DNA of 44,464 bases from a virus. Taxonomy: Duplodnaviria; Caudoviricetes. The stretch lies in IMG/VR virus record IMGVR_UViG_3300005573_000143, positions 1-44,464 of that record; one strand, written 5' to 3'. How positions within the stretch are numbered: position 1 is the stretch's first letter; each line of letters starts with the position of its first letter. Shown one piece after another: positions 17,412-33,043 of this stretch. The position numbers were made by a program, and so were the translations under genes. The notes under the pieces are model-generated. The model worked only from the letters and a program-made list of their open reading frames with translations, had not been told where the DNA came from and searched no databases.

Positions 17412-17423
17412 TTAAACCAATTT

Positions 17424-17453: not shown

Positions 17454-17518
17454 TTTTTCTTTTCTTAGTGATGATATAAGAAGAGGACAGCAAATTGAAT
17501 AAAAAAATTAAAAAATAC

Positions 17519-17545
17519 TTGACTTTTTTTAAAATGTGTTATAAT
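17519..17545 (+). promoter_or_regulatory. Early promoter
   Basis: A-tract UP element, TTGACT-N15-TATAAT with TGn extension. Confidence 0.75.
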
Positions 17546-17617
17546 GTTTACATAAAACATAATTTTGAAGTTAATTGAGACAAAAGTAATTTTGTAAAGT
17601 ATATAAGGAGGAAGTAT

Positions 17618-18112
17618 ATGAATGAAAGAGAAAAAAGAGAAAGAAGAATTTTTAGAAGGTTGGTTAGGTTTTTAAAAGACAATGATAATGATAATGATTT
17701 TGATTCAGAGAAGACGAAAAGATTTGAAGAGGAGACTGGAATAAGTATTAATATGATTTACGATATTTTGTATGATTATGTATATGATGATTTTGATGAG
17801 TATGCTTATAATTGGATGAACGGTTATGAAGATACAATTGATTTTTCAGGGTCTTGGGATGATTTAAAAAGTTATGAAAGGGATAATCTTATCAACGGTG
17901 TAACCGAAGGGTATTATCTCTATAAAAAAGAAAATAAATATAAAGAGATTAACGATATTGAGAATATTAAAAATTTTAAAGAATTTGTTGAATATGCATA
18001 TTGTTTGCATCTTTTAGACAATAATGATATAGAGAAGGTTGTTGGAAAAAATTATAATAGAATTGCTGAAAGATTTAATTATGATGATGAAGATGAAGAA
18101 GATGAAGATTAA
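17618..18112 (+). CDS. Highly acidic hypothetical protein
   Basis: Asp/Glu/Tyr-rich with tail DDEDEEDED; has its own promoter and RBS. Confidence 0.8.
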   Translation: MNEREKRERRIFRRLVRFLKDNDNDNDFDSEKTKRFEEETGISINMIYDILYDYVYDDFDEYAYNWMNGYEDTIDFSGSWDDLKSYERDNLINGVTEGYYLYKKENKYKEINDIENIKNFKEFVEYAYCLHLLDNNDIEKVVGKNYNRIAERFNYDDEDEEDED

Positions 18113-18162
18113 TTTTTTGATTGAAAAAGAAGCCGAAAGGTTAAAATTAATTAATATTTTCT

Positions 18163-18194
18163 CGGGGGAGTTATCCCCCGTGCATTTATTTTTT
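18163..18194 (+). terminator. Type-1 intergenic hairpin, fourth copy
   Basis: CGGGGGA-GTTA-TCCCCCG-TGCATTTATTTTTT, as at 14808, 15180 and 15552. Confidence 0.75.
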
Positions 18195-18227
18195 AAAGAT
18201 TTTACTTATAGTTACAGGAGGTGCTTT

Positions 18228-18326
18228 ATGAAAGAGAAAAAAAGCAAAAAGGGAATTATATATTTAAAAAGAATTAATTTAAATTTAGAAAAAAGAAAAA
18301 AATATTTAGTATGGCAAATTTTATAA
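18228..18326 (+). CDS. Possible 32-aa basic peptide
   Basis: AGGAGG RBS 7 nt upstream of the ATG; MKEKKSKKGIIYLKRINLNLEKRKKYLVWQIL. Confidence 0.4.
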   Translation: MKEKKSKKGIIYLKRINLNLEKRKKYLVWQIL

Positions 18327-18375
18327 ATCTTATAAATAAAAACAAGAAGAATGAATAAAAAAAATTAAAAAATAC

Positions 18376-18402
18376 TTGACTTTTTTTAGAGTATGTTATT
18401 AT
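18376..18402 (+). promoter_or_regulatory. Early promoter
   Basis: Same upstream block as at 17497 (GAATAAAAAAATTAAAAAATACTTGACTTTTTT); TGnTATTAT. Confidence 0.7.
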
Positions 18403-18432
18403 TATATAAAGTATAAAGAAAGGAGGAAGTAT

Positions 18433-18699
18433 ATGAAAGAAAAATATGTTGTATATCATATTGAAACAGTTAACCCAAACGACATAGTGGCTCCCGCTTG
18501 CAATTTTTGCGGAACTTACAAATTTCCTGAGGGGAAGGTTTATGTCGTGGATAAAATAGAAGAGGGGTTTGGAGCCGCTCTCGTTCCTGGAAAAAATATG
18601 AATAAACTACATTATTGTTCGCTCGAATGTATGGAGAGGGGCGAGGAAACAGATGAATTTTATGAGAACACAAACAATAAGTTCAAAATTAATAAATAA
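18433..18699 (+). CDS. Small zinc-finger protein
   Basis: CNFC...YCSLEC (TRASH/MYM-like spacing); AGGAGG RBS. Confidence 0.75.
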   Translation: MKEKYVVYHIETVNPNDIVAPACNFCGTYKFPEGKVYVVDKIEEGFGAALVPGKNMNKLHYCSLECMERGEETDEFYENTNNKFKINK

Positions 18700-18707
18700 T
18701 TAAATTT

Positions 18708-18742
18708 CGGGGCTTATGCCCCGTGTCTTTATTTTATTTTTT
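18708..18742 (+). terminator. Type-2 intergenic hairpin, second copy
   Basis: CGGGGCTTATGCCCCGTGTCTTTATTTTATTTTTT. Confidence 0.7.
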
Positions 18743-18821: not shown

Positions 18822-19283
18822 ATGGAAAAAAATGAAATAATTTTGGAGGAAGAACTTTTTAAGATATTAGATAAAGCAATAGAGGATAACAATATTGAAC
18901 TTATTAAAAAACTAATTTCCGAAGGGGTTAATGTAAATATAAAAGATAAATTCGGATGGACACCTTTAATGACTGCCAGTATTTTTGGACACATAGATTG
19001 TGTTCTGGAACTAATCAAAGCTGGTGCTAATGTAAATACTAAAACTAAAACTGGTATAACTGCCTTAATGAATGCGAGTGATTGCCCGAATACCGATTGC
19101 GTTAGAGAATTAATTAAAGCGGGGGCTGATGTAAACGCTAAAGACAAATATAATTGGACACCTTTAATGTATGCAAGTAGCCGTGGACATACTGATTGTG
19201 TTAAAGAACTTATTAAAGCAGGTGCTGATATAAATGTAAAAGATTATAGAGGAAAAACAGCTTTAGATAAAGATTTTATTTAA
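18822..19283 (+). CDS. Ankyrin-repeat protein 1 (N-cap plus 3 repeats)
   Basis: 33-aa repeats NVNxKDxxGxTPLMxAxxxGHxDCVxELIKAGA. Confidence 0.95.
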   Translation: MEKNEIILEEELFKILDKAIEDNNIELIKKLISEGVNVNIKDKFGWTPLMTASIFGHIDCVLELIKAGANVNTKTKTGITALMNASDCPNTDCVRELIKAGADVNAKDKYNWTPLMYASSRGHTDCVKELIKAGADINVKDYRGKTALDKDFI

Positions 19284-19347
19284 ATTATTTAAAAAAAGTA
19301 AATAAGAAGAGGACAGCAAGAAATAAGAAGAATAAATAGGAGAATAT

Positions 19348-19809
19348 ATGAAAAGTAAAATTAAAAATTATCATACTTCGTTGTTTTTAAAATTAATCTT
19401 TCTCATCTTCTTTATTTTTTTTCTTACTTTTTCTGTTGTTTTTGGAGAGGACAGCAAAAATAATTTAGTATTTCTTCTGCAAAATAGCTATTTAATATAT
19501 ATAGATATTTTTCTACAAACTTATCCCGCAATAACTTATCATAATGATTTGGAACCTAATCCTATAGCAAGAACATTTTTTAATAATAATCAATGGACAT
19601 TAGCTTATATTTCTGCAATTACTGCTAATTATCTTGTTGCTTCTTTACTTAATAATATAGATAATTCTGGAACTTTTTCGATGTGTTTTTTAGGAATAGT
19701 TGCAATAATCGAAACATATGTAATTAGTTTAAATCAGAAGTGGATGGACGGATATAAAGAAAAATCTTGTCTTAATTTTTATATTACATGTTTTGTTTAT
19801 GAATTTTAG
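19348..19809 (+). CDS. Membrane protein (DUF5658-like)
   Basis: N-terminal hydrophobic/signal segment, D...T...EPNPIAR motif, further TM segments. Confidence 0.6.
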   Translation: MKSKIKNYHTSLFLKLIFLIFFIFFLTFSVVFGEDSKNNLVFLLQNSYLIYIDIFLQTYPAITYHNDLEPNPIARTFFNNNQWTLAYISAITANYLVASLLNNIDNSGTFSMCFLGIVAIIETYVISLNQKWMDGYKEKSCLNFYITCFVYEF

Positions 19810-19863
19810 AAACAAAGATAAAAATATTATGTTAAGTTGAGAAAAAAATATTTTTTAAAATGC

Positions 19864-19890
19864 TTGACTTTTTAAAAAGTATACTATAAG
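19864..19890 (+). promoter_or_regulatory. Promoter for the recombination/replication operon
   Basis: TTGACT-N15-TATAAG (or N17-TAAGAT). Confidence 0.65.
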
Positions 19891-19989
19891 ATTAAAATAT
19901 AGCGTAACTTAAATGTAAAAAAAAGGAGATAAAATAAAAATGGTAGTTTAATTAGCGGGTTCTAAAAAATAAAAAAAAGGAGAAGAAAA

Positions 19990-20361
19990 ATGTTTATTTT
20001 TAAAACAAAAATTGGTAAAAACGAACTGGAATATCACGAAGAAACTCTAAAAAAAATTTTTAATTTCTCAACTTTGATAAGCCAAATCCCTACCCAATGT
20101 GACCTTTGTAAAAGTGACAATTTGTGGCTGGTATATAAGAAAACAAAGAACAATTACGATTATTATCTTGTTTCTTGCAAAGATTGCGGAGCAGAGGTTG
20201 CATTTGGACAAAAAAAAGAAGGTGGACTTTTTCTAAGGTACGGAGAGAAAATGAAAATTTATACACCTTCATCTTATCTCTCTGAAGCAAAAGAAAAAAA
20301 AGATGAAGAAGTAGATTTAGCAATTGAATCTTCTTCAAATGATAACGACATGGATTTTTAA
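19990..20361 (+). CDS. Zn-ribbon protein with SSB-like acidic tail
   Basis: CDLC...CKDC; C-terminus SSSNDNDMDF. Confidence 0.6.
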   Translation: MFIFKTKIGKNELEYHEETLKKIFNFSTLISQIPTQCDLCKSDNLWLVYKKTKNNYDYYLVSCKDCGAEVAFGQKKEGGLFLRYGEKMKIYTPSSYLSEAKEKKDEEVDLAIESSSNDNDMDF

Positions 20362-20362
20362 C

Positions 20363-20527
20363 ATGGCTTTTGAATGTATACTTCATCCTCACAAAGAGTG
20401 TTGGGGATGTGGAGAATGTGAAAATATTGATTATGATAATTTGCTTGATAAACAATTGCAGAAAAAAGATTATGAATATGACAGAGATAGAGACGACAAG
20501 CTCTGTGGAATTGGGAAAGGGAATTAA
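20363..20527 (+). CDS. Small Cys-rich protein
   Basis: MAFECILHPHKECWGCGEC...; starts 1 nt after the previous stop. Confidence 0.6.
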   Translation: MAFECILHPHKECWGCGECENIDYDNLLDKQLQKKDYEYDRDRDDKLCGIGKGN

Positions 20528-20534
20528 TAATTTT

Positions 20535-20567
20535 TTCCCAGCCTGTCCTCCTCCTGCAGGCTGGGAA
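20535..20567. promoter_or_regulatory. Perfect 11-bp GC-rich hairpin with TCCTCCTCCTG loop
   Basis: TTCCCAGCCTG / CAGGCTGGGAA, intergenic. Confidence 0.7.
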
Positions 20568-20599
20568 CGCATTTTTAAAAAACTTTTAAGGAATAAAAT

Positions 20600-21490
20600 A
20601 TGTTGAAAAATTTAATTTATTATTACTTACTTGAAAGTAGAAAAGACAGAGAAAATAAAGATATGGTGAGGTTTACTCCACATGCTCTTCCTGAATGTGA
20701 CAGACAATATTATTATCAATTATTTAGAACATCTATGGAAAGCAACCCACCAGAAGCTCCTTCTTTGCTGAAAATGGAGTTTGGAAGCGCAATTCATTTC
20801 GTCGTCCGAAAAATTTTAAAAGATATAAAAAGAGATAAAAATCTTTTTGAAAATTTGAAAGAAAGATATAAATATTTAAAAGACTTTGACTATATTGAAG
20901 GTGAAGAACTACGAGAACTACAAAAATGGGGTCTGACTTTTCGATACAAAGTTGATAATATCATCAAAATAAATAACGATAAATATGTGATTGAGATAAA
21001 AAGCACGTTTGGACGAGGATTTAAACGGATTGAAAATATTCCAGATCAAAAACATATAGCACAACTAATTTTTTATATGCTATTTGAAGGAATAGATAAA
21101 GGTATACTTCTTTACGCTGGTCGAGATACAGGATACTTATTAGAATATTGGATAGTGCTTGACAAAAAAAATAATCAAATTTTAATTTCAAAAAATTATT
21201 TTGAAATGACAGTTTTTTGTAAGAACATTTATTCTTATCTTAAACCGTTTATTTTAAAAATGCGAAAACTTAAAAAACAAATTGAAAATAATGAAATTCC
21301 AAAACGAGACTTTCTCTTAAATATGAAAAATATTAACGGAAAAATTGTATTTGATTTTATCTATAATGGCGAACAAATGACTACTTATCCATGCGCTAAT
21401 TATTGTGCGTGGAGAGATTTGTGTTGGAAGGATGAAATCGAAGAAATTAAAAAATATAAATTTTTTATAAATGGAAAATTTTTAAAATAA
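20600..21490 (+). CDS. Cas4-like PD-(D/E)XK exonuclease
   Basis: CDRQYYY, G.AIH, KVD...IEIKS, QL..Y, C-terminal CANYCAWRDLC (4-Cys Fe-S staple pattern). Confidence 0.85.
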   Translation: MLKNLIYYYLLESRKDRENKDMVRFTPHALPECDRQYYYQLFRTSMESNPPEAPSLLKMEFGSAIHFVVRKILKDIKRDKNLFENLKERYKYLKDFDYIEGEELRELQKWGLTFRYKVDNIIKINNDKYVIEIKSTFGRGFKRIENIPDQKHIAQLIFYMLFEGIDKGILLYAGRDTGYLLEYWIVLDKKNNQILISKNYFEMTVFCKNIYSYLKPFILKMRKLKKQIENNEIPKRDFLLNMKNINGKIVFDFIYNGEQMTTYPCANYCAWRDLCWKDEIEEIKKYKFFINGKFLK

Positions 21491-21524
21491 AAATAATTTT
21501 TAAACAAAAAAATAGGAGAATTTT

Positions 21525-21752
21525 ATGAACAAAAAAACAAGAAGACAAATTCAAACACACATTACGGCGATGATTAAAAGACAACTTCAAGCAAACAGGA
21601 AAAAAACTGATGATGAAACAATTATTTATGCAAGAACCTGTGGATTTTTATCGGCAATTATTGAATTTGCAATACTTGAACTCGCTGAATTTAATCCTAA
21701 AAAAGCATTTGAATTGGCAAACTGGGATTTGTATCGACAATTAAAATTATAA
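21525..21752 (+). CDS. Hypothetical protein
   Basis: AGGAG RBS, in operon. Confidence 0.7.
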   Translation: MNKKTRRQIQTHITAMIKRQLQANRKKTDDETIIYARTCGFLSAIIEFAILELAEFNPKKAFELANWDLYRQLKL

Positions 21753-21777
21753 TTATATAATATATAAGGAGAAAAAG

Positions 21778-22563
21778 ATGAAAGAAAAAGAGGAAGAACT
21801 TTTTGAAGCAGTAAAACTAAATAATATCGAACTCATAAAAAAATTTATAGCTGAAGAAGTGGATGTAAATGCACAAGATAATGATGGTTTTACACCTTTA
21901 ATGATTGCAAACATGTGTGAACATATTGATTGTATTAAGAAACTTATCAAAGCTGGAGCTGATGTAAACTTAAAAAATAGGGATGGAGAGACTGCTTTGA
22001 TGATTGCAATCTTACATGAACAGATTGATTATGTTAAGAAACTTATCAAAGCTGGAGCTGATGTAAACTCAAAAAATAAATTTGAAAATACAGCTTTGAT
22101 GATTGCAAGTCATTATGGACATATTCATTGCGTTAAAGAACTAATTAAGGCTGGTGCAAATATAAATGCGCAAGATAGAGATGGAGCAACTGCCCTGATG
22201 ATTGCGAGTTCATACGGATATATTGATTGTGTTAAAGAACTAATCAAAGTTGGTGCTGATGTAAATATAAAAGATAAGGATGGCTGGACTGCTTTAATAT
22301 ATGCAAGTTATCATGGACACAAAAATTGTATTAAGAAACTTATCAAAGCTGGAGCTGATATAAATGAAAAAGATAGGAACGGCTGGACAGCTCTAATGCA
22401 TGCAAGTTATCGGGGATACAGTGATTGTATTAAAGAACTAATTAAAGCTGGTGCAAATATAAATGCGCAAGATAGAGATGGAGCAACTGCCCTGATACTT
22501 GCAGAAAAACTTGGATATACTGACTGTGTTAAAGAACTAATTAAAGCGGGTGCTAAAAAATAA
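21778..22563 (+). CDS. Ankyrin-repeat protein 2 (type-A N-cap plus 7 repeats)
   Basis: Canonical ankyrin repeats. Confidence 0.97.
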   Translation: MKEKEEELFEAVKLNNIELIKKFIAEEVDVNAQDNDGFTPLMIANMCEHIDCIKKLIKAGADVNLKNRDGETALMIAILHEQIDYVKKLIKAGADVNSKNKFENTALMIASHYGHIHCVKELIKAGANINAQDRDGATALMIASSYGYIDCVKELIKVGADVNIKDKDGWTALIYASYHGHKNCIKKLIKAGADINEKDRNGWTALMHASYRGYSDCIKELIKAGANINAQDRDGATALILAEKLGYTDCVKELIKAGAKK

Positions 22564-22584
22564 AAAAATAATAAGGAGAAAAAA

Positions 22585-23280
22585 ATGAAAAGAAAAGTTG
22601 AAGTAGGAGAACTTTTTAATGCAGTAACATGTAATAATATTAGACTTATTAAAGAGTTAATTAAAGAAAAAAGAGTTAATGTGAATATGAAAGATAAGGA
22701 TGGCTGGACAGCTCTAATGTATGCAAGTTATTGGGGATATAATGATTGTATTAAGGAACTCATTAAGGCTGGAGCTGATATGAATATGAAAGATAAGGAT
22801 GGCTGGACAGCTCTAATGCAAGCAAGTTATCGAGGATACAGTGATTCTATTAAGAAACTAATTAAAGCTGGAGCTGATATAAATGCAAAAGATAATGATG
22901 GTTTTACACCTTTGATGATTGCAAGCATGTATGGACATATAGATTGTGTTCGGGCACTAATCAAGGCTGGAGCGGATGTGAATGCAAAAAATAAAAAAAA
23001 TTGGACAGCCTTAATGCATGCAAATTATTGGGGATATAGCGATTGTATTAAGGAACTCATTAAGGCTGGAGCGGATGTAAATATGAGAGATAAAAATAAT
23101 TTTACAGCTCTAATATATGCAAGTTATCGGGGATATATTGACTGTGTTCGAGAACTAATTAAAGCTGGCGCTGATATAAATGCAAAAGATAAAAATGAAC
23201 AAACTGCCTTGATGATTGCAGAAAGATATAGACATACTAATTGTGTTAATGCATTAATTAAAGCTGGAGCAAAAAAATAA
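22585..23280 (+). CDS. Ankyrin-repeat protein 3 (type-B N-cap plus 6 repeats)
   Basis: Canonical ankyrin repeats. Confidence 0.97.
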   Translation: MKRKVEVGELFNAVTCNNIRLIKELIKEKRVNVNMKDKDGWTALMYASYWGYNDCIKELIKAGADMNMKDKDGWTALMQASYRGYSDSIKKLIKAGADINAKDNDGFTPLMIASMYGHIDCVRALIKAGADVNAKNKKNWTALMHANYWGYSDCIKELIKAGADVNMRDKNNFTALIYASYRGYIDCVRELIKAGADINAKDKNEQTALMIAERYRHTNCVNALIKAGAKK

Positions 23281-23308
23281 AAAAATAATAAATAATAAGG
23301 AGAAAAAA

Positions 23309-23668
23309 ATGATTAATGAAGTTTTAAAAATTTTTGAATCGGTTGGTTTTAAATGTAGTAAACCAACCGCAATTAAATATGGGTTACAATATGGTTTTTT
23401 GAATAAAAAAGCAGATGGATTTCATTTTGAATTTATACGGGAAAAGTTTAATGATTTTATCAAAAGTTTAAAAATACCAGAAAATTATATCCCAGTCCAG
23501 GAAGCAATAAAAAAGTATAATATTAGTCGAGGAAGAATCGTTTATGCGAATCTCTCTGGAATTCTACGGACAATTAAAATTCTAAATAAAATTTTTGTAA
23601 ACGAAAATGATATAAAAAATCTTATTGAATATAAATATAAAATAAAAATTCTAAAGAAGGAGAAATAA
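23309..23668 (+). CDS. Putative DNA-binding protein (MerR/Xis-like HTH)
   Basis: YIPVQEAIKKYNISRGRIVYANLSGILRTIKI...IFVNENDI. Confidence 0.55.
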   Translation: MINEVLKIFESVGFKCSKPTAIKYGLQYGFLNKKADGFHFEFIREKFNDFIKSLKIPENYIPVQEAIKKYNISRGRIVYANLSGILRTIKILNKIFVNENDIKNLIEYKYKIKILKKEK

Positions 23669-24022
23669 ATGGAAATAGCAAAAGTGGCTGAAGAAATAGA
23701 AAAAAAAATTAAAGAACTTGATATTTTAAAAGAGAAGATTAAAATGTATGCAGATAAAAAAGCTCAAAGTCAAGCTCTTTACGATTTAGAGTTGGCAAAG
23801 ATAATAATCAGTTTAAAAAACGGCAAACAATTTCAATTGGCAGGCGAAATAATAGAAAATCCACCTATCACTCTTATTGAAAAGATAGCAAAAGGAATTT
23901 GTTGGGAGAAAGAATTGGAAAAAGAAAAGGCTGAGGCAGAATATAAAGGTTTAATTACAAAGATTGATACTGTATGTGCACAATTAAATGGTTGGCAAAG
24001 TATCAATCGACATTTGGATTAA
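23669..24022 (+). CDS. Helical hypothetical protein
   Basis: AAGGAG RBS; coiled-coil character. Confidence 0.75.
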   Translation: MEIAKVAEEIEKKIKELDILKEKIKMYADKKAQSQALYDLELAKIIISLKNGKQFQLAGEIIENPPITLIEKIAKGICWEKELEKEKAEAEYKGLITKIDTVCAQLNGWQSINRHLD

Positions 24023-24050
24023 ATATAATATAAAAAAAGGAGTGTAAAGT

Positions 24051-24419
24051 ATGAGTATAATATCAAATTTCTTTTCCCCAATCATTTTGAAAAAGATTTA
24101 TGTTAGGATAACGGGTTCAGTTGTTGCTGGGCTATTGCTTTCTGAATTGGATGACCAGGTTAGTGAAAGTGGGTCTGATGAAATTAGTTGCAGTGAGCAA
24201 GATTTGCTACAAAAAACTTTGTTATCACCAGAAGAATTTAAAATTGCAAAAGGGATTTTATGCGAAAAAGGATTTATTAAAAATAAAGAAGGAGATATTT
24301 ATTACGTTGATTATGAAAAAGTCTACAACGCTATGGAAAATGTAGAAGAAGAAGGCGTAAAAAAAACAACGGTTAATTATAAAAGAGTAGGTGACAATAA
24401 AACATATAAGTTTGCATAA
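24051..24419 (+). CDS. wHTH protein, paralog of the initiator N-terminal domain (copy 2)
   Basis: C-terminal ~75 aa nearly identical to 14392..14799; different N-terminus. Confidence 0.75.
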   Translation: MSIISNFFSPIILKKIYVRITGSVVAGLLLSELDDQVSESGSDEISCSEQDLLQKTLLSPEEFKIAKGILCEKGFIKNKEGDIYYVDYEKVYNAMENVEEEGVKKTTVNYKRVGDNKTYKFA

Positions 24420-24426
24420 AACATAA
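24192..24426 (+). repeat. 235-bp dispersed direct repeat, copy 2
   Basis: Matches 14572-14806; offset 9620 bp. Confidence 0.93.
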
Positions 24427-24438
24427 AGGAGGAAATTT

Positions 24439-24768
24439 ATGGAAAAAAGAATAACTTTACCAGATTTGAATCCACCAGCTATAGTCTCAGCAAACACATA
24501 TCGCTGGAGTTCTGGAGGTACAGCAGACAGCAGAAGGCGAAATGAGAAAAATAAGCTTGGGCAGGTATACGATTGGCTATTGACACTCAATGAGCGATTC
24601 GGATTGGGGATGTCTCTCACATGTGATAGTAATATAAAGGGAACTGTTGTTGATGAAAAAGGAAAAGTAAAAAGAATAGTATATTTTCACTATGCTGAAT
24701 CGTGTCATCATGTATATAAAAAGCAGGATTTTAGAAAACTTTTGAAATTAATTAAGACAAAAATTTAG
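24439..24768 (+). CDS. Hypothetical protein, paralog of 17082..17411
   Basis: See paralog; AGGAGG RBS. Confidence 0.8.
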   Translation: MEKRITLPDLNPPAIVSANTYRWSSGGTADSRRRNEKNKLGQVYDWLLTLNERFGLGMSLTCDSNIKGTVVDEKGKVKRIVYFHYAESCHHVYKKQDFRKLLKLIKTKI

Positions 24769-24809
24769 AAATTAAGGAAAAGGATTTGTGCAGAGTAAAG
24801 GAGATAAAG

Positions 24810-25937
24810 ATGAAAGAAAGAATAATTAATGCAATTAAAAAACATCGTGGTCGTGCAAATATTATAGCAATTCCGCAGGAATTTTTAAAATTCACAGGCG
24901 ATGTTAATAGTGCTCTTTTGCTATCACAATTGGTATACTGGACAGACAGAACAAAAGATGAAAATGGTTGGATATATAAGTCATATGATGATTGGGAAAA
25001 AGAATTGACTTTAAATAAGTATAAAACAATGACTGCCAAAAAACACCTTGAAAAACTTGGAGTTATAGAAACAAAAGCAAAAAAAGTAAAAAATCTTGTT
25101 TATGTTCATTATAGACTAACCGATAAATTTGAAACAATATTTATAGATTATCTTAAAACTAAAGAAACTAAAGATAAAAATATTAGAAAGTTAAAAAATC
25201 AAACTTCTGAAAGTAAAAAATTTAGAAAATCAAAAAATCAAACTTCCGAAGGTCTGGAAATTAAAAATTTAAACTATGAAAAATCAAAAAATTTAATTTC
25301 TGAAAATAAAAATTTTATACTTCCTACTGATAACAATATTACTAGTATTATTATTAGTAGTACTAGTAATAATATTAATAATAATACTAGTATAAATACT
25401 AGTAATACTAGTAATATTAATACTAGTATTATTACAAAGACTACTAGACATAGATTACATACAGAAACTATCGATGAAAATATTCAAAACGACTCCGTCG
25501 TTTTAATCGATGATAAAGACAAAAAGATAATGGCATGGAAATATTTTCTTAGTCGTTATCAATCTAAATACAACAGTTCACATTTACAAAACGCTAAAAC
25601 AATGTCGCAGTTTACACAAATCTGGAAACAATCTGGGGAACGAATTTATGACCTTATCGACGCATTCTTAGATTGCAACGAATATTGGTATATAAAAAAT
25701 TGCCATCAAATCGGTCTTTTACTTAAAGACATTCAAAAATTTTTTGTATTAAGTTCTACAGGGAAAAAAATGATAACAAAAAAAGAAGCAGAAAAGATTG
25801 AAAAAGAATCAAGTTCTTACATCGATTGGGAAAGGATAAAAATGATTGATGAAGAGTATGAGAAATATAAAGCAGAAGGCGGGGATAAAAGTATTGTGGA
25901 ATTTACAATGGATTTTAAGAAAAAAAATATTTCATAA
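24810..25937 (+). CDS. Replication initiator (lambda O-like, N-terminal wHTH)
   Basis: FTGDVNSALLLSQLVYW....GWIYKSYDDWEKEL.L......AKKHL..LGVIE, then a low-complexity iteron-encoded linker. Confidence 0.85.
   Translation: MKERIINAIKKHRGRANIIAIPQEFLKFTGDVNSALLLSQLVYWTDRTKDENGWIYKSYDDWEKELTLNKYKTMTAKKHLEKLGVIETKAKKVKNLVYVHYRLTDKFETIFIDYLKTKETKDKNIRKLKNQTSESKKFRKSKNQTSEGLEIKNLNYEKSKNLISENKNFILPTDNNITSIIISSTSNNINNNTSINTSNTSNINTSIITKTTRHRLHTETIDENIQNDSVVLIDDKDKKIMAWKYFLSRYQSKYNSSHLQNAKTMSQFTQIWKQSGERIYDLIDAFLDCNEYWYIKNCHQIGLLLKDIQKFFVLSSTGKKMITKKEAEKIEKESSSYIDWERIKMIDEEYEKYKAEGGDKSIVEFTMDFKKKNIS
25193..25450. repeat. Putative replication origin (iterons within the initiator gene)
   Basis: About five degenerate AAAAATYWAAYTTCYGAA repeats (25193-25325), then six TACTAGTA palindromes at 25340, 25361, 25385, 25397, 25406 and 25421. 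Confidence 0.7.
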
Positions 25938-25961
25938 AAATATAAAATTTAAGAGGAAAAT

Positions 25962-26543
25962 ATGATAGTTTTTAAAAATATGGCGAAAGCGATCGAATAT
26001 TTTCGGAAACAGTATGAATGGACAGAAGAAGAAATAGAAATAATTATTGAATATTTAAAAACATTAGACAAAAATTTTGTGCTTGATAAATTTAGTGATA
26101 TTTTTTATGGTGGAATTGATAATGAAAATAAAGACATTACTAATTTTTTATCACACTTTTTCCAAATTACTCCAAAACAAGCTTGGGCAAAATGTTTGAT
26201 GGGGAATGATGAAAGTATCTCCATTGTTTTAAGTGATTATATAACACAAGTCTTTCAAGAAGTCTTGCCTCTTGTAGAAAATAAACAAACTCAAGAGGCC
26301 ATGAAAATCTTTTTAAGAAAATACAAAGAAATTAAATTAAAGAATTGGAATCAAAAAGAAAACTTTTTTATTTCGTATGGCACAGATATTACGAGTAGAG
26401 AACAAGCAGAAAGAGAAGCTTTAAGATTAAGACTAATACAACAAAAAGATTGTTCTTATCTTGAAAAAGATTTGATAAAATTACCAACTAATCTTTTAAA
26501 TTCTTTAAAAAAAGTAGAAATAAAAGAAGGAGAAACTTTATGA
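25962..26543 (+). CDS. Putative helicase loader/initiator partner
   Basis: Directly after the initiator; QAWA...DE..SIV....I...F...Y...ISYGTD...RE.A.REALRL pattern resembles proteins found at the lambda P position. Confidence 0.5.
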   Translation: MIVFKNMAKAIEYFRKQYEWTEEEIEIIIEYLKTLDKNFVLDKFSDIFYGGIDNENKDITNFLSHFFQITPKQAWAKCLMGNDESISIVLSDYITQVFQEVLPLVENKQTQEAMKIFLRKYKEIKLKNWNQKENFFISYGTDITSREQAEREALRLRLIQQKDCSYLEKDLIKLPTNLLNSLKKVEIKEGETL

Positions 26544-27532
26544 AAAAAAAAGAGAAAAAATTATTTGAGGCAGTAGAACTAAATAATGTTGAACTTCTCA
26601 AAAAACTTATTGCTGAAGGAATAGATGTAAATTCTAAAGAAAAATATGGTTGGACTGCATTAATGCTTGCAAGCACACGAGGATATCTCGATTGTATTAA
26701 GGAACTCATTAAGGCTGGTGCAAATGTAAATGCAAAAAATGAAAATGGCTGGATAGCTTTAATGCATGCAAGTTATCGGGGATATATTGACTGTGTTCGG
26801 GCACTAATCAAAGCTGGAGCAAATATAAATGTAAAAGATAAGGATGGTTCTACACCTTTGATGATTGCAAGTTGTTGGGGATATATTGATTGTGTTCGGG
26901 CACTAATCAAGGCTGGAGCGGATGTAAATTTAAAAAATAATTATGGCTGGACAGCTCTAATGTATGCAAACAGGCATGGACGTATCGATTGTGTTCAGAA
27001 ACTAATTAAAGCTGGAGCTGATGTAAATATAAGAGATAAAAATAGTTTTACAGCTCTAATGCATGCAAGTAATTGGGGATATATTGATTGTGTTCGGGCA
27101 CTAATCAGGGCTGGAGCGGATGTGAATGCAAAAGATAAAAAAAATTGGACAGCCTTAATGTATGCAAGTTGTTGGGGATATAGCGATTGTATTAAGGAAC
27201 TCATTAAGGCTGGAGCGGATGTAAATATAAAAGATAAGGATGGCTGGACTGCATTAATGGATGCAAGTTATCGGGGATACAGTGATTGTATTAAAGAACT
27301 AATTAAAGCTGGTGCTGATGTAAATGAAAAAAATAGGAATGGAGAAACTGCCTTAATGATTGCAAGCATGTATGGATATATTGATTGTATTCGGGAACTA
27401 ATTAAGGCTGGTGCTGATGTAAACTCAAAAAATAATAATGGAGAAACCGCTTTGATGATTGCAGAAAAATATGGATATACTAATTGTGTTAAAGAACTAA
27501 TTAAAGCGGGTGCTAAAAAAATAAAAAAATAA
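26540..27532 (+). CDS. Ankyrin-repeat protein 4 (type-A N-cap plus 9 repeats)
   Basis: Canonical ankyrin repeats. Confidence 0.97.
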   Translation: MKKKEKKLFEAVELNNVELLKKLIAEGIDVNSKEKYGWTALMLASTRGYLDCIKELIKAGANVNAKNENGWIALMHASYRGYIDCVRALIKAGANINVKDKDGSTPLMIASCWGYIDCVRALIKAGADVNLKNNYGWTALMYANRHGRIDCVQKLIKAGADVNIRDKNSFTALMHASNWGYIDCVRALIRAGADVNAKDKKNWTALMYASCWGYSDCIKELIKAGADVNIKDKDGWTALMDASYRGYSDCIKELIKAGADVNEKNRNGETALMIASMYGYIDCIRELIKAGADVNSKNNNGETALMIAEKYGYTNCVKELIKAGAKKIKK

Positions 27533-27545
27533 TAAGGAGAAAAAA

Positions 27546-28751
27546 ATGAAAAGAAAAGTTGAAGTAGGAGAATTTTTTGAAGCAGTGAGATGTAATAATG
27601 TGAAGCTTATTAAAGAGTTAATAAAAAAAAGAGTTAATATAAATATAAGAAATAAATTTGGAAATACACCTTTGATGATTGCAAGCATGTATGGACATAC
27701 TAACTGTGTTCGGGCACTAATCAGGGCTGGAACTGATGTAAATGCAAAAAATAATTTTGGCTGGACTGCATTAATGCTTGCAAACAGATATGGACGTATC
27801 GATTGTGTTCAAAAACTCATCAAAGCTAGAGCTGATATAAATGCACAAAATAATGAGGGTTCTACATCATTGATGATTGCAATCTTACATGAACAGATTG
27901 ATTGTGTCAAGGAACTTATTAAAATGAATGCTGATATAAATATAAAAAATAATTATGGCTGGACAGCTTTAATGCATGCAAGTTATCGGGGATACAGTGA
28001 TTGTATTAAAGAACTAATTAAAGCTGGTGCTGATGTAAATGAAAAAAATAGGAATGGAGAAACTGCTTTGATGATTGCAATAAGATATAAACGCACTAGA
28101 CATATTGATTATATTCGGGAACTAATTAAGGCTGGTGCTGATATAAACACACAAGATAAAGATGGAGAAACTGCCTTAATGTTTGCGAGTTCATGCGGAT
28201 ATATTGATTGTGTTAAAGAACTAATCAAAGATGGTGCAGATGTAAATATAAAAGATAAAGATGGCTGGACAGCCTTAATGTATGCAAGTTATCGGGGATA
28301 CAGTGATTGTGCTAAAGAACTCATAGAGGCTGGAGCTGATATAAATATAAGAGATAAAGATAGTTTTACAACTCTAATGCATGCAAGTAGTTTGGGATAC
28401 AGTGATTGTGCTAAAGAACTTATCAAGGCTGGTGCGGATGTAAATGCAAAAGATAATGATGGTTTTACAGTTCTAATGTATGCAAGTTGTTGGGGATATA
28501 TTGACTGTATTCGGGAACTAATCAAAGCTGGAGCAAATATAAATGCAAAAGATAAAGATGGTTTTACACCTTTAATGATTGCAAGTATGTATGGACATAT
28601 AGATTGTATTCGGGAACTAATCAAGGCTGGAGTTAATGTAAACTTAAAAAATAAGAACGGAGAAACTGCCCTGATGATTGCAGAAAAATATGGATATACT
28701 AATTGTGTTAAAGAACTAATTAAAGCGGGTGCTAAAAAAATAAAAAAATAA
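27546..28751 (+). CDS. Ankyrin-repeat protein 5 (type-B N-cap plus 11 repeats)
   Basis: Canonical ankyrin repeats. Confidence 0.97.
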   Translation: MKRKVEVGEFFEAVRCNNVKLIKELIKKRVNINIRNKFGNTPLMIASMYGHTNCVRALIRAGTDVNAKNNFGWTALMLANRYGRIDCVQKLIKARADINAQNNEGSTSLMIAILHEQIDCVKELIKMNADINIKNNYGWTALMHASYRGYSDCIKELIKAGADVNEKNRNGETALMIAIRYKRTRHIDYIRELIKAGADINTQDKDGETALMFASSCGYIDCVKELIKDGADVNIKDKDGWTALMYASYRGYSDCAKELIEAGADINIRDKDSFTTLMHASSLGYSDCAKELIKAGADVNAKDNDGFTVLMYASCWGYIDCIRELIKAGANINAKDKDGFTPLMIASMYGHIDCIRELIKAGVNVNLKNKNGETALMIAEKYGYTNCVKELIKAGAKKIKK

Positions 28752-28764
28752 TAAGGAGAAAAAA

Positions 28765-29670
28765 ATGAAAAGAAAAGTTGAAGTAGGAGAACTTTTTAAT
28801 GCAGTAAGATGTAATAATGTAAAACTTATTAAAGAGTTAATAAAAAAAAGAGTTAATATAAATATAAGAAATAATAATGGAAATACAGCCTTGATGATTG
28901 CAAACATGTATGGACATACTAACTGTGTTCGGGCACTAATCAGGGCTGGTGCTGATGTAAATGCAAAAGATAAAAAAGATTGGACAGCTGTAATGTATGC
29001 TATTGTTTATGATTATGGACATATTGATTGTGTTAAGGAATTAATTAAGGCTGGTGCTGATGTAAATATAAGAAATAATTATGGCTGGACAGCTTTAATG
29101 TATGCAAGTAGCCGTGGACATACTGATTGCGTTAAAGAACTCATAGAGGCTGGTGCTGATGTAAACTCAAAAAATAATAATGGAGAAACTGCCCTGATGA
29201 TTGCAGTAAGATATAAATACACTAGATATCTTGATTGCGTTAAAGAACTTATCAAGGCTGGAGCTGATGTAAATATAAAAGATAAGGATGGCTGGACAGC
29301 TTTAATGTATGCAAGTTGTCATGGACACAAAAATTGTATTAAGGAACTTATTAAGGCTGGCGCAAATATAAATACAAAAAATGAAAATGGCTGGACAGCT
29401 TTAATGCATGCAAGTTATCGGGGATATATTTATTGTGTTAAAGAATTAATTAAAGTTGGCGCTGATATAAATGCAAAAGATAATAATGGAGAAACTGCCT
29501 TAATGATTGCAAGCATGTATGGATATATTGATTGTATTCGGGAACTAATCAAGGCTGGAGCAGATGTGAATGCAAAAAATAATAATGGAGAAACCGCTTT
29601 GATGATTGCAGAAAAATATGGATATACTAATTGTGTTAAAGAACTAATTAAAGCGGGTGCTAAAAAATAA
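28765..29670 (+). CDS. Ankyrin-repeat protein 6 (type-B N-cap plus 8 repeats)
   Basis: Canonical ankyrin repeats. Confidence 0.97.
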   Translation: MKRKVEVGELFNAVRCNNVKLIKELIKKRVNINIRNNNGNTALMIANMYGHTNCVRALIRAGADVNAKDKKDWTAVMYAIVYDYGHIDCVKELIKAGADVNIRNNYGWTALMYASSRGHTDCVKELIEAGADVNSKNNNGETALMIAVRYKYTRYLDCVKELIKAGADVNIKDKDGWTALMYASCHGHKNCIKELIKAGANINTKNENGWTALMHASYRGYIYCVKELIKVGADINAKDNNGETALMIASMYGYIDCIRELIKAGADVNAKNNNGETALMIAEKYGYTNCVKELIKAGAKK

Positions 29671-29686
29671 AAAAAAGGAGAAAAAG

Positions 29687-30106
29687 ATGAAAAGAAAAAT
29701 TGAAGTAGGAGAACTTTTTAATGCAGTAACATGTAATAATATTAGACTTATTAAAGAGTTAATTAAAGAAAAAAGAGTTAATGTGAATATGAAAAATGAG
29801 GATGGCTGGACAGCTGTAATGTATGCTATTGTTTATGATTATGAACATACTAACTGTATTCGGGCACTAATCAAGGCTGGTGCTGATGTAAATGCAAAAG
29901 ATAAAGATGGTTTTACACCTTTAATGATTGCAAGTATGTATGGACATATAGATTGTATTCGGGAACTAATCAAGGCTGGTGCTAATGTAAACTTGAAAAA
30001 TAAGAACGGAGAAACTGCCCTGATGATTGCAGAAAAATATGGATATACTAATTGTGTTAAAGAACTAAAGCGGGTGCTAAAAAATAAAAAAAGGAGAAAA
30101 AAATGA
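29687..30106 (+). CDS. Ankyrin-repeat protein 7 (type-B N-cap plus 3 repeats, frameshifted C-terminus)
   Basis: Start MKRKIEVGE after AAGGAG; a 4-nt loss in the C-cap gives KELKRVLKNKKRRKK. Confidence 0.93.
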   Translation: MKRKIEVGELFNAVTCNNIRLIKELIKEKRVNVNMKNEDGWTAVMYAIVYDYEHTNCIRALIKAGADVNAKDKDGFTPLMIASMYGHIDCIRELIKAGANVNLKNKNGETALMIAEKYGYTNCVKELKRVLKNKKRRKK

Positions 30107-30444
30107 CAACAAAAAGTAAAAAAGCAAAAGGAAAACGGTTGCAAAAAATAGTTTGTGAAATTCTTGCAAAAAAATTAAATATAGTTTATAATCAGCAAGA
30201 TGATAATTGTTTAATTCATAGTCGAGAAATGAATCAATCAGGAGTTGATGTAATTCTACGAGATGAAGCTTTTAAAAAATTTCCGTTTTTGATTGAATGT
30301 AAAAATCAGGAACGGATAAGTTTAAATAAAGTAATAGAGCAAGCAAAAAAAAGAGGAGAGAATTGGTTGATTGTTTATAAAAACAATCATTTAAAAAATC
30401 CAGTCGTTATTTTAGATTTTCAAATATTTCTTTCAAAAATTTAA
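30103..30444 (+). CDS. Holliday junction resolvase (Hjc-like)
   Basis: SKKAKGKRLQ..V...L, SGVDVIL, IECKNQE. Confidence 0.85.
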   Translation: MTTKSKKAKGKRLQKIVCEILAKKLNIVYNQQDDNCLIHSREMNQSGVDVILRDEAFKKFPFLIECKNQERISLNKVIEQAKKRGENWLIVYKNNHLKNPVVILDFQIFLSKI

Positions 30445-30454
30445 GGAGGAAAAA

Positions 30455-31150
30455 ATGGAAAACAAAAAAATGTTTTTAGAAGTTTTGGTTATATGTTCTT
30501 TTGTACTAAATATATTTTTTCTTTTTTTATTTTTCTCAAAAGAGCAACAATATAAATTGGAAAAGAACATAATCTATAATATTTTGTTAAATAATTGTGA
30601 AAATGAGGTTTATAATACTTTTTCTAATTATCGTTCAAAAGACCTACAAAAAATTTTTGAAACAGCAAATCAAAAAACCTTAAATCAACTGAAAAGTTTG
30701 AGAATTGAAATTAAATCGCAAGAACAAAATCTGACAGATAGTATAATTTTTTTTAATCCACTCGGAGCAAAAAAAATATTTGTCACTTCCTGGATGGGAT
30801 ATAGGAAAAAAATCTCAAAAAATATTGGTGGAAATTCTTTAAGAAAGCATGAAGGAATAGATTTAGTCGGTTCAAAAAAAATTTTTGCAACTTTTGCTGG
30901 AAGGGTCAGTTTTGTTGGGAAAAAAGGGGACTATGGAAATCTAATAATTATTCAACATAGAGATAAACTTGAAAGTAGATATGCTCATTTGTCTAAAATT
31001 TTTGTTAAAAAAGGAGATTTTGTTTTTGCTACAGAATTGATAGGATTAATGGGGCAAACAGGAAGAACTACAGGAGAACATTTGCACTTTGAAATACGAA
31101 AAAATAATAAATTAATAGATTTAAATAGAATTTATTTTAAAAACATCTGA
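30455..31150 (+). CDS. M23 family peptidase with N-terminal membrane anchor
   Basis: HEGIDL, YGNLIIIQH, YAHLS, GQTGRTTGEHLHFEIR. Confidence 0.93.
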   Translation: MENKKMFLEVLVICSFVLNIFFLFLFFSKEQQYKLEKNIIYNILLNNCENEVYNTFSNYRSKDLQKIFETANQKTLNQLKSLRIEIKSQEQNLTDSIIFFNPLGAKKIFVTSWMGYRKKISKNIGGNSLRKHEGIDLVGSKKIFATFAGRVSFVGKKGDYGNLIIIQHRDKLESRYAHLSKIFVKKGDFVFATELIGLMGQTGRTTGEHLHFEIRKNNKLIDLNRIYFKNI

Positions 31151-31183
31151 AATCATTATAATTTTTTTAATAGGGGAAAAATA

Positions 31184-31732: not shown

Positions 31733-32271
31733 AAATTTTAGATATTATTAGAGGAGGTCAAGTTCCGCCTCTTTTTAAGGAACGAGATAAATTTGATTCT
31801 TTAATTAAAGTTTATGCAGATGAATCTAAAACATATATTCAAGATATCACAAAATTTGTCAATACAGATTTCTGTTATGATTATCGAGGTGGAATTTTAA
31901 AAGAAGGTGAATATGGTGGTATATGTGGATTAAGACAAGATAGAATAAATAAACCGAAGGTAATTTATATTTTTAACTTAAGATTTTGGGATATAATAAA
32001 TGATAAAGATAAAGATTTAAAAGAATATATGCGTATATTACCATCTATAATTCCCAATCCTAATCATAATAACAAAAGTATTATAACACAAGTATTAATA
32101 CATTCTGATAATATAGTAGGAGGAGGTTCTCATGGATGTATTACTGTTTTCCCAACCGAGTGGAAAAATTTTATAAGTTTATTTGAAATAAACGAAAAAT
32201 GTAAAATTAATCTTATTAGAGATCCAAGATACAAATTTAATTTAGATTTTAATGAGCTATCGGAGGGATAA
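31729..32271 (+). CDS. Putative cell-wall enzyme with YkuD/L,D-transpeptidase-like catalytic motif
   Basis: VLIH.......GSHGCITV (His...SxGC). Confidence 0.6.
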   Translation: MKILDIIRGGQVPPLFKERDKFDSLIKVYADESKTYIQDITKFVNTDFCYDYRGGILKEGEYGGICGLRQDRINKPKVIYIFNLRFWDIINDKDKDLKEYMRILPSIIPNPNHNNKSIITQVLIHSDNIVGGGSHGCITVFPTEWKNFISLFEINEKCKINLIRDPRYKFNLDFNELSEG

Positions 32272-32272
32272 A

Positions 32273-33043
32273 ATGATTGAAAAAAAAGAAGAAGAGAGAA
32301 AAGATATTATTTCTGATAATAATTTATCAGAACAACATCAATTAATACATATAGAAAAAAGTAATCATACAATTCCTACAAAATATGATATAACTACCAT
32401 GAATAATGATTTAGAAAAAATAGAAAATAATCCTTTTGTAGGAATATCAGAAAGTGCTTTTTCAAAAGAGATACAAAAAAAACTGATGGAAAAAATTCCA
32501 GAAGAAGAAATTCAAATTAGACCAGATGGTATAATTTTTCTACCCGAAATAAAATACAGGCAAAGATTAGATGAAGCTTTTGGAATTGGTGCTTGGGCAT
32601 TAAGAAGGGTATCAATTACTCAAGAAAAAACTAATGAAAAAATAATAGTTTATTTTGATGGAATATTATACATATATGGTAGATATATTGCTCAGGCAAT
32701 AGGAGAACAAGAATATTTTGCAAATAATAAAGAAATGACTTATGCTACTGCGGCAGAATCTGCAAAGTCAAATTGTTTAATGCGATGTTGTAAGGATGTC
32801 GGCATAGCAAGAGAATTATGGGATATTAAATTCATAGAAGAATGGAAAAAGAAATATGCTATAGCTGTTTGGTGTACTTATATTGGTAATGGCATAAATA
32901 ATAATAAAACGAAATTATTATGGCGGAAAAAAAATAGTCCTCCTTTTTTGTATCCTTATAAAGAAATGCTAAATGATAATGATATTAAGAACACAGAAAA
33001 AATGGAAAATGTACAAAATTCAAAAAACAAAGATATTATTTAA
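32273..33043 (+). CDS. Mgm101/Rad52-like single-strand annealing protein
   Basis: IRPDGIIFLPEIKYRQRL.EAFG.G.W.L, GEQEYF, AKSNCLMRCCKDVGIARELWD..FI closely follows the Mgm101 core. Confidence 0.88.
   Translation: MIEKKEEERKDIISDNNLSEQHQLIHIEKSNHTIPTKYDITTMNNDLEKIENNPFVGISESAFSKEIQKKLMEKIPEEEIQIRPDGIIFLPEIKYRQRLDEAFGIGAWALRRVSITQEKTNEKIIVYFDGILYIYGRYIAQAIGEQEYFANNKEMTYATAAESAKSNCLMRCCKDVGIARELWDIKFIEEWKKKYAIAVWCTYIGNGINNNKTKLLWRKKNSPPFLYPYKEMLNDNDIKNTEKMENVQNSKNKDII

What the first reader, a model, noticed from the sequence alone, without database searches (positions are those of the whole stretch)
18822..30106. A phage-encoded DARPin-like library: seven ankyrin genes assembled from shuffled modules
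Seen: seven pure ankyrin proteins in three loci (1+2+4 genes) with 3/7/6/9/11/8/3 repeats, about 5.5 kb or 12% of the genome. Each has an N-cap plus internal repeats, six end in an AE(K/R)x(G/R)xT(N/D)C C-cap, and none has a signal peptide or effector domain. The scaffold (CxKELIKAGADxN, TALM) is nearly fixed. Variation concentrates in the beta-turn and helix 1. Sub-repeat modules recur in different genes, orders and flanks: ASYRGYSD, ASMYG, ASCWGY, AILHEQID, ANRxGRID, AIVYDY, AxRYKxTR, HGHKN. One example is a 37-nt identical tract at 19162-19198 and 29093-29129, in otherwise divergent genes 10 kb apart. Known: those variable positions are the ankyrin binding surface randomised in DARPins; ankyrin genes are known from Wolbachia phage WO and sponge ankyphages. 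Inference: recombination continually regenerates a repertoire of intracellular binders, for example inhibitors of host defence proteins or toxins, in the manner of a variable-receptor system.
Basis: partly seen in the sequence, partly recalled or inferred. Interest (0 to 1): 0.88.

Follow-up and report, generated by a model that had tools for sequence, protein, structure and literature searches.

The report
Phage ankyrin genes shuffled by recombination
A small hot-spring bacteriophage spends an eighth of its genome on seven ankyrin-repeat genes that have swapped short pieces with each other, which likely gives it a changing set of protein binders for use inside its host, a pattern known from giant viruses and fungal immune receptors but rare in phages.

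Summary
In detail: a complete 44-kb phage carries seven pure ankyrin genes (47 repeats, 12.4% of the genome). Recombination between repeats is shown. There are 79 exact shared tracts of 25 nt or more (68 between genes), and none of 500 clonal simulations reached the observed signal. Contigs of two hot-spring runs match unique parts of the arrays. A third, tiny run holds a three-way mosaic absent from the window, possibly an amplification chimera. The closest complete relative has no ankyrin gene.

The 'variable-receptor' reading is only partly supported. Binding-face codons evolve near neutrally (omega about 0.7, interval 0.4-1.4) against 0.16 for the scaffold, and no site exceeds 1. The variability profile is that of ordinary ankyrins. 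Repeat-private changes show no purifying selection. No reverse transcriptase, integrase or resolvase was found, and the same phage duplicated other genes too.

Best reading: a lineage-specific gene accordion kept patchworked by ordinary ectopic recombination, likely via the phage's Rad52-type annealase, likely encoding cytoplasmic binders of host proteins. Targets and host are unknown. This scan noted similar arrays before on other DNA, including one 160-kb phage (unchecked).

The parts
18822..19283 (+). A1: ankyrin gene, N-cap + 3 repeats + partial repeat; most divergent member, in the early cassette region
   Evidence: only 8% of it lies in exact tracts shared with other members
19948..19984 (+). 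Short copy of the ankyrin C-cap end and spacer in front of gene 19990, behind a three-codon mini-ORF; likely scar of a lost eighth ankyrin gene
   Evidence: 23-nt exact match 19962-19984 = 29660-29682; 38-nt cap+spacer matches with 4 edits, the only such place outside ankyrin gene ends
20600..21490 (+). Cas4/RecE-like exonuclease, likely partner of the annealase
   Evidence: PHROG 1706 E 6e-17, 1990 E 4e-10, 434 E 1e-3
21778..22563 (+). A2: ankyrin gene, type-1 N-cap, 7 repeats
22585..23280 (+). A3: ankyrin gene, type-2 N-cap, 6 repeats
26540..27532 (+). A4: ankyrin gene, type-1 N-cap, 9 repeats; 27274-27337 has a second, mosaic form in run X3
27546..28751 (+). A5: ankyrin gene, type-2 N-cap, 11 repeats, one with a 3-codon insertion
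28765..29670 (+). A6: ankyrin gene, type-2 N-cap, 8 repeats, with 2- and 3-codon insertions; AlphaFold pLDDT 96.5
29687..30106 (+). A7: ankyrin gene, type-2 N-cap, 3 repeats; C-cap end frameshifted in the window, intact in another assembly
30103..30444 (+). RusA-like Holliday junction resolvase, directly behind A7
   Evidence: PHROG 244 E 5e-9; PF24608 E 5e-6
32252..33043 (+). Mgm101/Rad52-type single-strand annealing protein, likely driver of the exchanges
   Evidence: PF06420 E 1e-53, PF04098 E 7e-4

Best explanation
These are seven cap-to-cap ankyrin genes of one phage lineage whose 99-nt repeats have been patchworked by recombination between copies, likely through the phage's own annealase and exonuclease, and they likely encode cytoplasmic binders that would grip host proteins during infection. 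Steps: (1) one ankyrin gene was likely acquired after the split from the nearest complete relative (inferred; the relative has none). (2) It was copied into three loci and in tandem; the junction 'last repeat - stop - RBS - N-cap' is itself a repeated module, 86-95% identical among four copies (shown). Moving a junction would change repeat number and gene number (inferred). (3) Short tracts of about 30-120 nt are exchanged between any repeats, homogenising the scaffold and recombining hairpin and helix-1 variants (mosaicism shown; gene conversion or unequal crossing-over by the Rad52-type protein inferred from known phage biology). (4) Older selection kept the fold and left the binding face free to vary (omega 0.16 against about 0.7; shown on a single tree). 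(5) The genes lie among early and replication genes with strong RBSs and no export signal, so the targets would be host cytoplasmic proteins, most plausibly defence or toxin proteins (inferred, untested). It works like a gene accordion with concerted evolution, not like a programmed diversity generator.
For: PHI p=0.0005. The far-minus-near incompatibility of 0.26 was reached in 0 of 200 clonal simulations and 0 of 300 rescaled to the observed identity. 79 exact tracts of 25 nt or more, 68 between genes, median 31 nt; 52% of ankyrin DNA lies in tracts of 20 nt or more found elsewhere. The nearest repeat lies in the same gene for only 3 of 41 (6.2 expected), and 30 of 41 repeats have different closest partners for their two halves. 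All 41 internal repeats differ in protein sequence. Omega: binding face 0.7 (0.4-1.4), exposed non-binding helix-2 positions 0.2, core 0.08. All 4 repeat-length changes are whole codons. Binding-face positions are rich in Tyr, Trp and Arg. The model of A6 matches a DARPin at TM 0.91-0.92. Annealase, exonuclease and resolvase are encoded, and Rad52-like phage recombinases work on short, diverged sequences (PMC3945230, passages). G001 (complete, TerL 58%, syntenic virion genes) has no ankyrin match. X3 holds a mosaic of A4, A3 and A6 letters absent from the window, and P0266 is a different form of A7.
Against: No site or class has omega above 1 with confidence. Changes private to one repeat are 14 nonsynonymous to 1 synonymous in the scaffold of A2-A7 (18 to 5 with A1), more than omega 0.17-0.25 predicts (p 4e-5 to 0.035), so present-day purifying selection is not seen. 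G001 also has the annealase (56% identity) and no array, so the enzyme does not by itself explain the array. 7 of 8 tested variant groups in X1/X2 are just other window copies laid on the stretch: no common rearranged form was seen. One gene end is frameshifted and another seems lost. No host or target was identified.
Confidence: 0.58

Rival explanations
1. Mostly idle accordion: the array grows and mixes because the phage recombines any repeat it carries. One or two genes may matter and the rest are redundant or filler; the low scaffold omega is inherited from the ancestral gene's repeats.
For: Repeat-private changes look unselected. The A7 frameshift and the scar at 19948-19984. The same genome has a 372-nt exact tandem duplication, a 193-nt duplicated tract and a newly homogenised tail-repeat block.
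Against: Six of seven frames are whole over 5 kb, all length changes are in whole codons, and caps, stops and RBSs are kept at each junction. Recent, mildly harmful changes also look neutral before they are purged (general population genetics).
Confidence: 0.22
2. The proteins are immunity factors that neutralise incoming toxins (polymorphic or abortive-infection toxins) and so protect the infected cell; a narrower form of the best explanation.
For: Mycobacterium prophage ankyrin genes are annotated as polymorphic-toxin immunity proteins. Ankyrin domains occur in PADLOC models PDC-M72A and MzaA (generic repeat matches).
Against: No toxin gene is next to any of the three loci. No integrase was found, so long residence in a lysogen is not indicated.
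Confidence: 0.1
3. A dedicated diversity-generating system (retroelement, shufflon or cassette switch) rewrites the repeats at high rate.
For: Dense mosaicism; a three-part variant in X3.
Against: No RVT_1, Phage_integrase or Resolvase match in the genome, with controls ringing. No Rfam hit. Shared tracts cover all 33 codon positions. All donors are open genes, not silent cassettes.
Confidence: 0.05
4. Ankyphage-type role: proteins released from the infected bacterium dampen a eukaryotic predator or host.
For: Phage ankyrins with that effect are described (10.1101/608950, passages); 15 of the 30 GenBank phage-collection records with an ankyrin match are Wolbachia or Megaira phages.
Against: No signal-like N-terminus, whereas two Ankyphage proteins have one. 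No eukaryote-type effector domain. The two main holders are hot-spring metagenomes.
Confidence: 0.04
5. The mosaics are assembly chimeras of several strains.
For: Repeats longer than the k-mer break contigs, and no laid piece spans an array. A7's end differs between assemblies.
Against: Pieces of 135-457 nt inside A4-A6 match with 0 differences in X1 and X2, and an X3 piece runs from the flank 365 nt into A4 with 0 differences. Most tracts are about 30 nt, shorter than such pieces.
Confidence: 0.03

Closest known systems
Ankyrin 'genomic accordion' of Bodo saltans virus and other giant viruses (PMC5871332, passages read)
   Same: Tandem, same-strand ankyrin genes with varying repeat number (4-17 there, 3-11 here), recent duplication, proposed anti-host role.
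   Different: Here a 44-kb tailed phage of a bacterium; 7 genes rather than 148; no fused catalytic fragments; exchange shown at sub-repeat scale.
Highly internally conserved ANK/TPR/WD repeats of fungal NOD-like receptors (PMC4986451, passages read)
   Same: Homogenised scaffold, variation on inner helix and hairpin, recombination within and possibly between loci.
   Different: No NACHT or effector domain. Repeat identity is 61% aa / 72% nt, below their 85% criterion. Positive selection is shown there and not here.
Wolbachia and phage WO ankyrin genes (PMC3563639, PMC3287509, passages read)
   Same: Prophage-borne ankyrin genes whose repeat number and order change by recombination and shuffling.
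   Different: WO proteins are at most 37% identical, belong to an insect symbiont and often carry other domains. Here they are pure capped solenoids in a hot-spring phage.
Sponge Ankyphages, ANKp (10.1101/608950, passages read)
   Same: Tailed phage carrying ankyrin genes.
   Different: Those are described as secreted (two have signal peptides) and as acting on eukaryotic cells; the passages read describe no multi-gene shuffled array.
DARPin and ANK-N5C libraries (PMC8683736, PMC4308713, passages read)
   Same: N-cap + 33-residue repeats + C-cap; variable beta-turn and helix 1; predicted fold TM 0.91-0.92 to a DARPin. An ANK-N5C binder blocked transcription inside E. coli.
   Different: Engineered and randomised. 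Here only 4-12 residue types occur per variable site, drawn from a small shared pool, with 3-11 repeats.

Membership tests
Ankyrin-repeat proteins | 33-residue repeats matching Pfam Ank families | tested here: met
   All 7 far above the cut-offs
Ankyrin-repeat proteins | Helix-turn-helix solenoid with caps | tested here: met
   A6 model pLDDT 96.5, 18 helices; TM 0.92 to 6mol and 4rlv; a prediction
Viral ankyrin gene accordion (BsV type) | Tandem, recently duplicated ankyrin genes with varying repeat number | tested here: met
   absent from relative G001
Viral ankyrin gene accordion (BsV type) | Copy number changes within the population | tested here: inconclusive
   Scar at 19948-19984; sequence variants in X3 and P0266; contigs cannot give copy number
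Fungal NLR high-internal-conservation repeats | At least 85% identity among repeats | tested here: not met
   Mean 61% aa, range 42-97%
Fungal NLR high-internal-conservation repeats | Positive selection at binding-face sites | tested here: inconclusive
   Omega 0.7 (0.4-1.4); positions 13 and 32 at 1.2 (0.85-1.7); paralogous repeats on one tree, no alleles
Fungal NLR high-internal-conservation repeats | NACHT/NB-ARC domain | tested here: not met
   Proteins are repeats and caps only
Diversity-generating retroelement | Reverse transcriptase gene | tested here: not met
   No PF00078 match; controls rang in 3 of 14
Diversity-generating retroelement | Template/variable repeat pair with adenine-specific changes | not tested
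   No formal test; the X3 changes include G>A, G>C and T>C
Shufflon or cassette-switching system | Site-specific recombinase | tested here: not met
   No PF00589 or PF00239 match; controls rang in 14 and 12 of 14
Ankyphage ANKp | N-terminal signal peptide | tested here: not met
   Charged N-caps, low hydropathy
Ankyphage ANKp | Dampening of a eukaryotic response | not testable with these tools
   Needs bench assay
Phage anti-defence proteins | Binds or blocks a host defence protein | not testable with these tools
   Host not identified

The most novel reading that the evidence does not exclude
A small lytic phage keeps a live, self-recombining library of antibody-like binders. Its annealase reshuffles hairpin and helix-1 modules and gene junctions among 47 repeats fast enough that single infections yield new binder variants (as the X3 mosaic suggests), and these are selected against changing host defence proteins: an adaptive counter-immune repertoire in a phage.
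Probability: 0.22. Interest if true: 0.88.

Novelty: new variant of a known kind. Interest (0 to 1): 0.52.

Why it matters
Ankyrin genes are rare in phages: 30 of 50,697 GenBank phage-collection records matched, 14 of them Wolbachia phages. The known cases mostly point at eukaryotes. Here a compact, apparently non-integrating hot-spring phage gives 12% of its genome to pure, non-exported ankyrin solenoids that exchange binding-face modules. If they bind host defence proteins, phages can evolve counter-defence by recombining a generic binder scaffold, not only by collecting unrelated inhibitors, and pull-downs with these proteins would be a direct way to find defence systems of an uncultured host. 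They are also natural, probably heat-tolerant, DARPin-like scaffolds (stability inferred from habitat only).

Tried and rejected
No close relative was found. Viral-contig scans with TerL and P0133 gave none; A4 and the exonuclease gave one distant hit each. The metagenome scan with A5 gave the window's own record (L010) and 24 loci at 46% identity or less. The best A6 homologues reached 57% at most. The representative search returned only long generic ankyrin proteins. A1-A6 are not in the exact-sequence collection, so their variants could not be listed. Host search failed: TerL in genome contigs gave one 39% hit in a Bacteroidetes bin, and the M23 peptidase homologues were mixed. No RNA holder was listed. 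X3 has no cover from 27581 on, which is not evidence of absence. Reads were laid only on 25480-31200, so A1-A3, the scar and the 372-nt duplication are unchecked by reads. IQ-TREE's omega for small site sets stayed at its start value and a first own fit was numerically unstable; both were discarded for the grid fit. The first singleton count ignored letters already present in a column and was corrected. The tail repeats gave no significant PHI signal (p=0.19, 6 units). Sigma-70 promoter matches were not above shuffles (97 against 112). No complex was predicted because no partner was in view. Paper searches for phage ankyrin arrays or ankyrin anti-defence found no such report: searches returned 0 papers; some searches returned 9, 1, 3 and 1, judged from listings except the two opened. 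The library lacks most subscription journals, and supplements were not read (the Ankyphage list of 418 IMG/VR contigs may include multi-gene cases).
Full report
Setting. The window is a complete virus record with a 121-nt terminal overlap. It has portal, terminase and tail genes on the minus strand and a plus-strand block of early, replication and recombination genes from about 14.4 to 33.4 kb. All seven ankyrin genes lie in that block. No integrase, serine resolvase or reverse transcriptase was found, while control genomes rang. Three runs hold the region: two hot-spring metagenomes of one year (X1, X2; one may be the source and both may be one campaign) and a very small run X3. The host was not identified.

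Observation. Seven ORFs are ankyrin repeats and caps only: 47 repeats, 5,499 nt, 12.4%. The 41 internal repeats are all different as proteins, with mean identity 61% aa and 72% nt. A7 begins at the ATG at 29687, and its last residues are frameshifted in the window. An AlphaFold model of A6 (pLDDT 96.5) is a regular solenoid that absorbs both insertions and matches a DARPin at TM 0.91-0.92. None of the seven has a hydrophobic leader, and each has an AGGAG-type site before its start.

Mosaicism is real. Among the ankyrin genes there are 79 exact tracts of 25 nt or more, 68 between genes, median 31 nt, the longest 120 nt; 52% of the ankyrin DNA lies in exact tracts of 20 nt or more found elsewhere. 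A PHI test gives p=0.0005. Incompatibility between distant sites exceeds that between close sites by 0.26. This was reached in 0 of 200 clonal simulations on the fitted tree with site rates kept in order and 0 of 300 rescaled to the observed identity. Only 3 of 41 repeats have their nearest neighbour in the same gene, and 30 of 41 have different closest partners for their two halves. Simple tandem duplication is therefore rejected. The gene junction is also a module: the four copies of 'last repeat, stop, RBS, N-cap' are 86-95% identical. Each multi-gene locus starts with a type-1 cap followed by type-2 caps. A 38-nt copy of the cap end and spacer at 19948-19984, behind a three-codon ORF, looks like the scar of a lost gene (inference).

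Not an artefact, with limits. On 25480-31200, six listed pieces of X1 and six of X2 inside A4-A6 (135-457 nt) match with 0 differences (489 records not shown; no piece spans an array, so long-range order is not proven). Of 8 groups of variant letters in X1/X2 that I tested, 7 are explained by other window copies and one single letter (29446, X2) is not. The remaining rows were not tested by script.

Other forms exist. X3 has two contigs over 27244-27367, one identical (depth 9.5) and one with 10 other letters (depth 5.4). The nine listed letters make it A4 for 30 nt, then A3 (22833-22871) for 39 nt, then A6 (29460-29514) for 55 nt; no single window copy comes closer than 9 mismatches (the tenth place was inferred and left open). 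It changes at least five residues, mainly scaffold and hairpin. It is one contig in a 0.27-Mb run of unrecorded library type, and amplification can make chimeras (PMC1855051, listing only), so it is suggestive and not proof. A 7,582-nt contig of another assembly encodes A7 with an intact cap and an A5-type residue (P0266). This may be a strain difference or an assembly difference.

Selection. Entropy is 2.06 bits at positions 2, 3, 5, 13, 14 and 33 (DARPin numbering recalled; PMC4308713 passages name 2, 3, 5, 10, 13 and 33 for a similar library) against 0.87 elsewhere. The rank profile follows that of 96 repeats cut from 17 of 120 homologues (rho 0.78; inflated because the cutting pattern fixes some positions). 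PMC4308713 chose its positions from the entropy of natural repeats, so the location of the variation is generic to ankyrins. Codon fits on one tree give omega 0.7 (0.4-1.4) for the six positions, 0.2 for exposed helix-2 positions, 0.16 for the rest and 0.08 for the core. No site's interval lies above 1; positions 13 and 32 reach 1.2 (0.85-1.7) (a single tree is wrong under recombination). The binding face is thus clearly less constrained than an equally exposed non-binding face, which fits diverse binding but also relaxed constraint. Against tight current selection, letters private to one repeat are 14 nonsynonymous to 1 synonymous in the scaffold of A2-A7 (18 to 5 with A1). That is compatible with neutrality and above what omega 0.17-0.25 predicts (p 4e-5 to 0.035). 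Either recent mild changes have not yet been purged, or the copies are redundant.

Mechanism. The phage encodes an Mgm101/Rad52-type annealase, a Cas4/RecE-like exonuclease and a RusA-like resolvase. Rad52-like phage recombinases act on short, diverged homology (PMC3945230, passages), which fits the tract lengths; their role here is inferred. The process is not special to the ankyrin genes. The genome has 34 exact repeats of 25 nt or more in a tail-protein repeat block and 9 more elsewhere, including a 372-nt tandem duplication and a 193-nt copied tract. Four unrelated ankyrin arrays had the same internal identity (0.71-0.76), and two had a PHI signal. The nearest complete relative, G001 (TerL 58%, capsid 55%, annealase 56%), has no ankyrin match and only 16 exact repeats, one being its terminal overlap. 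The family is therefore specific to this lineage, and the annealase alone is not sufficient.

Function. Position among early and replication genes, no export signal, no second domain, and Tyr/Trp/Arg-rich faces point to binders acting in the host cytoplasm during infection. Host defence or toxin proteins are the most plausible targets. This is inference; nothing here shows binding or expression. An engineered ankyrin of this architecture blocked transcription inside E. coli (PMC4308713, listing and passages), so the mode of action is feasible.

Comparison. The closest systems are the ankyrin accordion of Bodo saltans virus (PMC5871332), the highly conserved repeats of fungal NLRs (PMC4986451), Wolbachia and WO ankyrin genes (PMC3563639, PMC3287509) and Ankyphages (10.1101/608950); I read passages of each, not whole texts or supplements. 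A megaplasmid preprint makes the same DARPin analogy for multicopy solenoid genes (10.1101/2025.09.30.679422, passages). It works like the first two but fails their stricter marks (85% identity, shown positive selection, NACHT domain), and it is not a retroelement or shufflon. In the GenBank phage collection 30 of 50,697 records match, at identities under 40%. My searches found no paper on such an array in a tailed phage. This scan's own notes list one 160-kb phage with 17 ankyrin genes and several giant-virus and protist cases (unchecked).

Verdict. A real, recombining ankyrin gene family in an unusual place: a new variant of a known kind. The bold reading, a selected and continually renewed counter-defence library, remains open at about one in five. 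Interest 0.52.

Noticed in passing
window 165-944 (- strand, inside ORF 2-2395, which continues across the terminal overlap into 41492-44464): Tail-protein block of about 6.4 repeats of 40-41 aa, 92% identical in DNA, varying at 8 positions in mixed combinations; the relative G001 has only diverged repeats there. A second possible shuffled surface, this one on the virion. The contig opens inside this gene.
   Followed up: partly
window 14807-15582: Exact 372-nt tandem duplication giving two identical 101-aa ORFs, bounded by copies of a terminator-like hairpin; not checked against reads.
   Followed up: no
window 14808-18723: Six copies of two GC hairpins (4+2) and three similar TTGACT promoter-like sites (17518, 18376, 19864) divide the early region into cassettes; terminator-like sites 19 against 4.8 in shuffles. 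They could serve as recombination points for gene cassettes.
   Followed up: partly
window 17481, 18787, 19307: A 13-nt motif occurs three times, twice flanking ankyrin gene A1; possible operator or recombination site.
   Followed up: no
window 14392-14799 / 24051-24419 and 17055-17411 / 24439-24768: Two gene pairs duplicated between the early region and the replication region (92% and 44% aa identity; 193 nt identical in the first).
   Followed up: partly
window 3945-5644 (- strand): Two glycosyltransferase-like genes inside the virion module, conserved in G001 and L044; possible virion glycosylation.
   Followed up: no
L017, L022, L023: Short contigs with two pure ankyrin genes sharing the C-terminal tail RRGGxxTTVYE and homogenised repeats (PHI p=0.001 in L017): a similar small family in an unrelated organism.
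   Followed up: partly
L041 6812-7183 and L043 11135-11329 (G001): The relative carries its own short-repeat proteins (GNISGNLY-type and GYGY-type) in the early region where the window has ankyrin genes.
   Followed up: no
L046 2004-2771, L047 7827-8615: Two related phages with a single coiled-coil + ankyrin gene next to the terminase.
   Followed up: no
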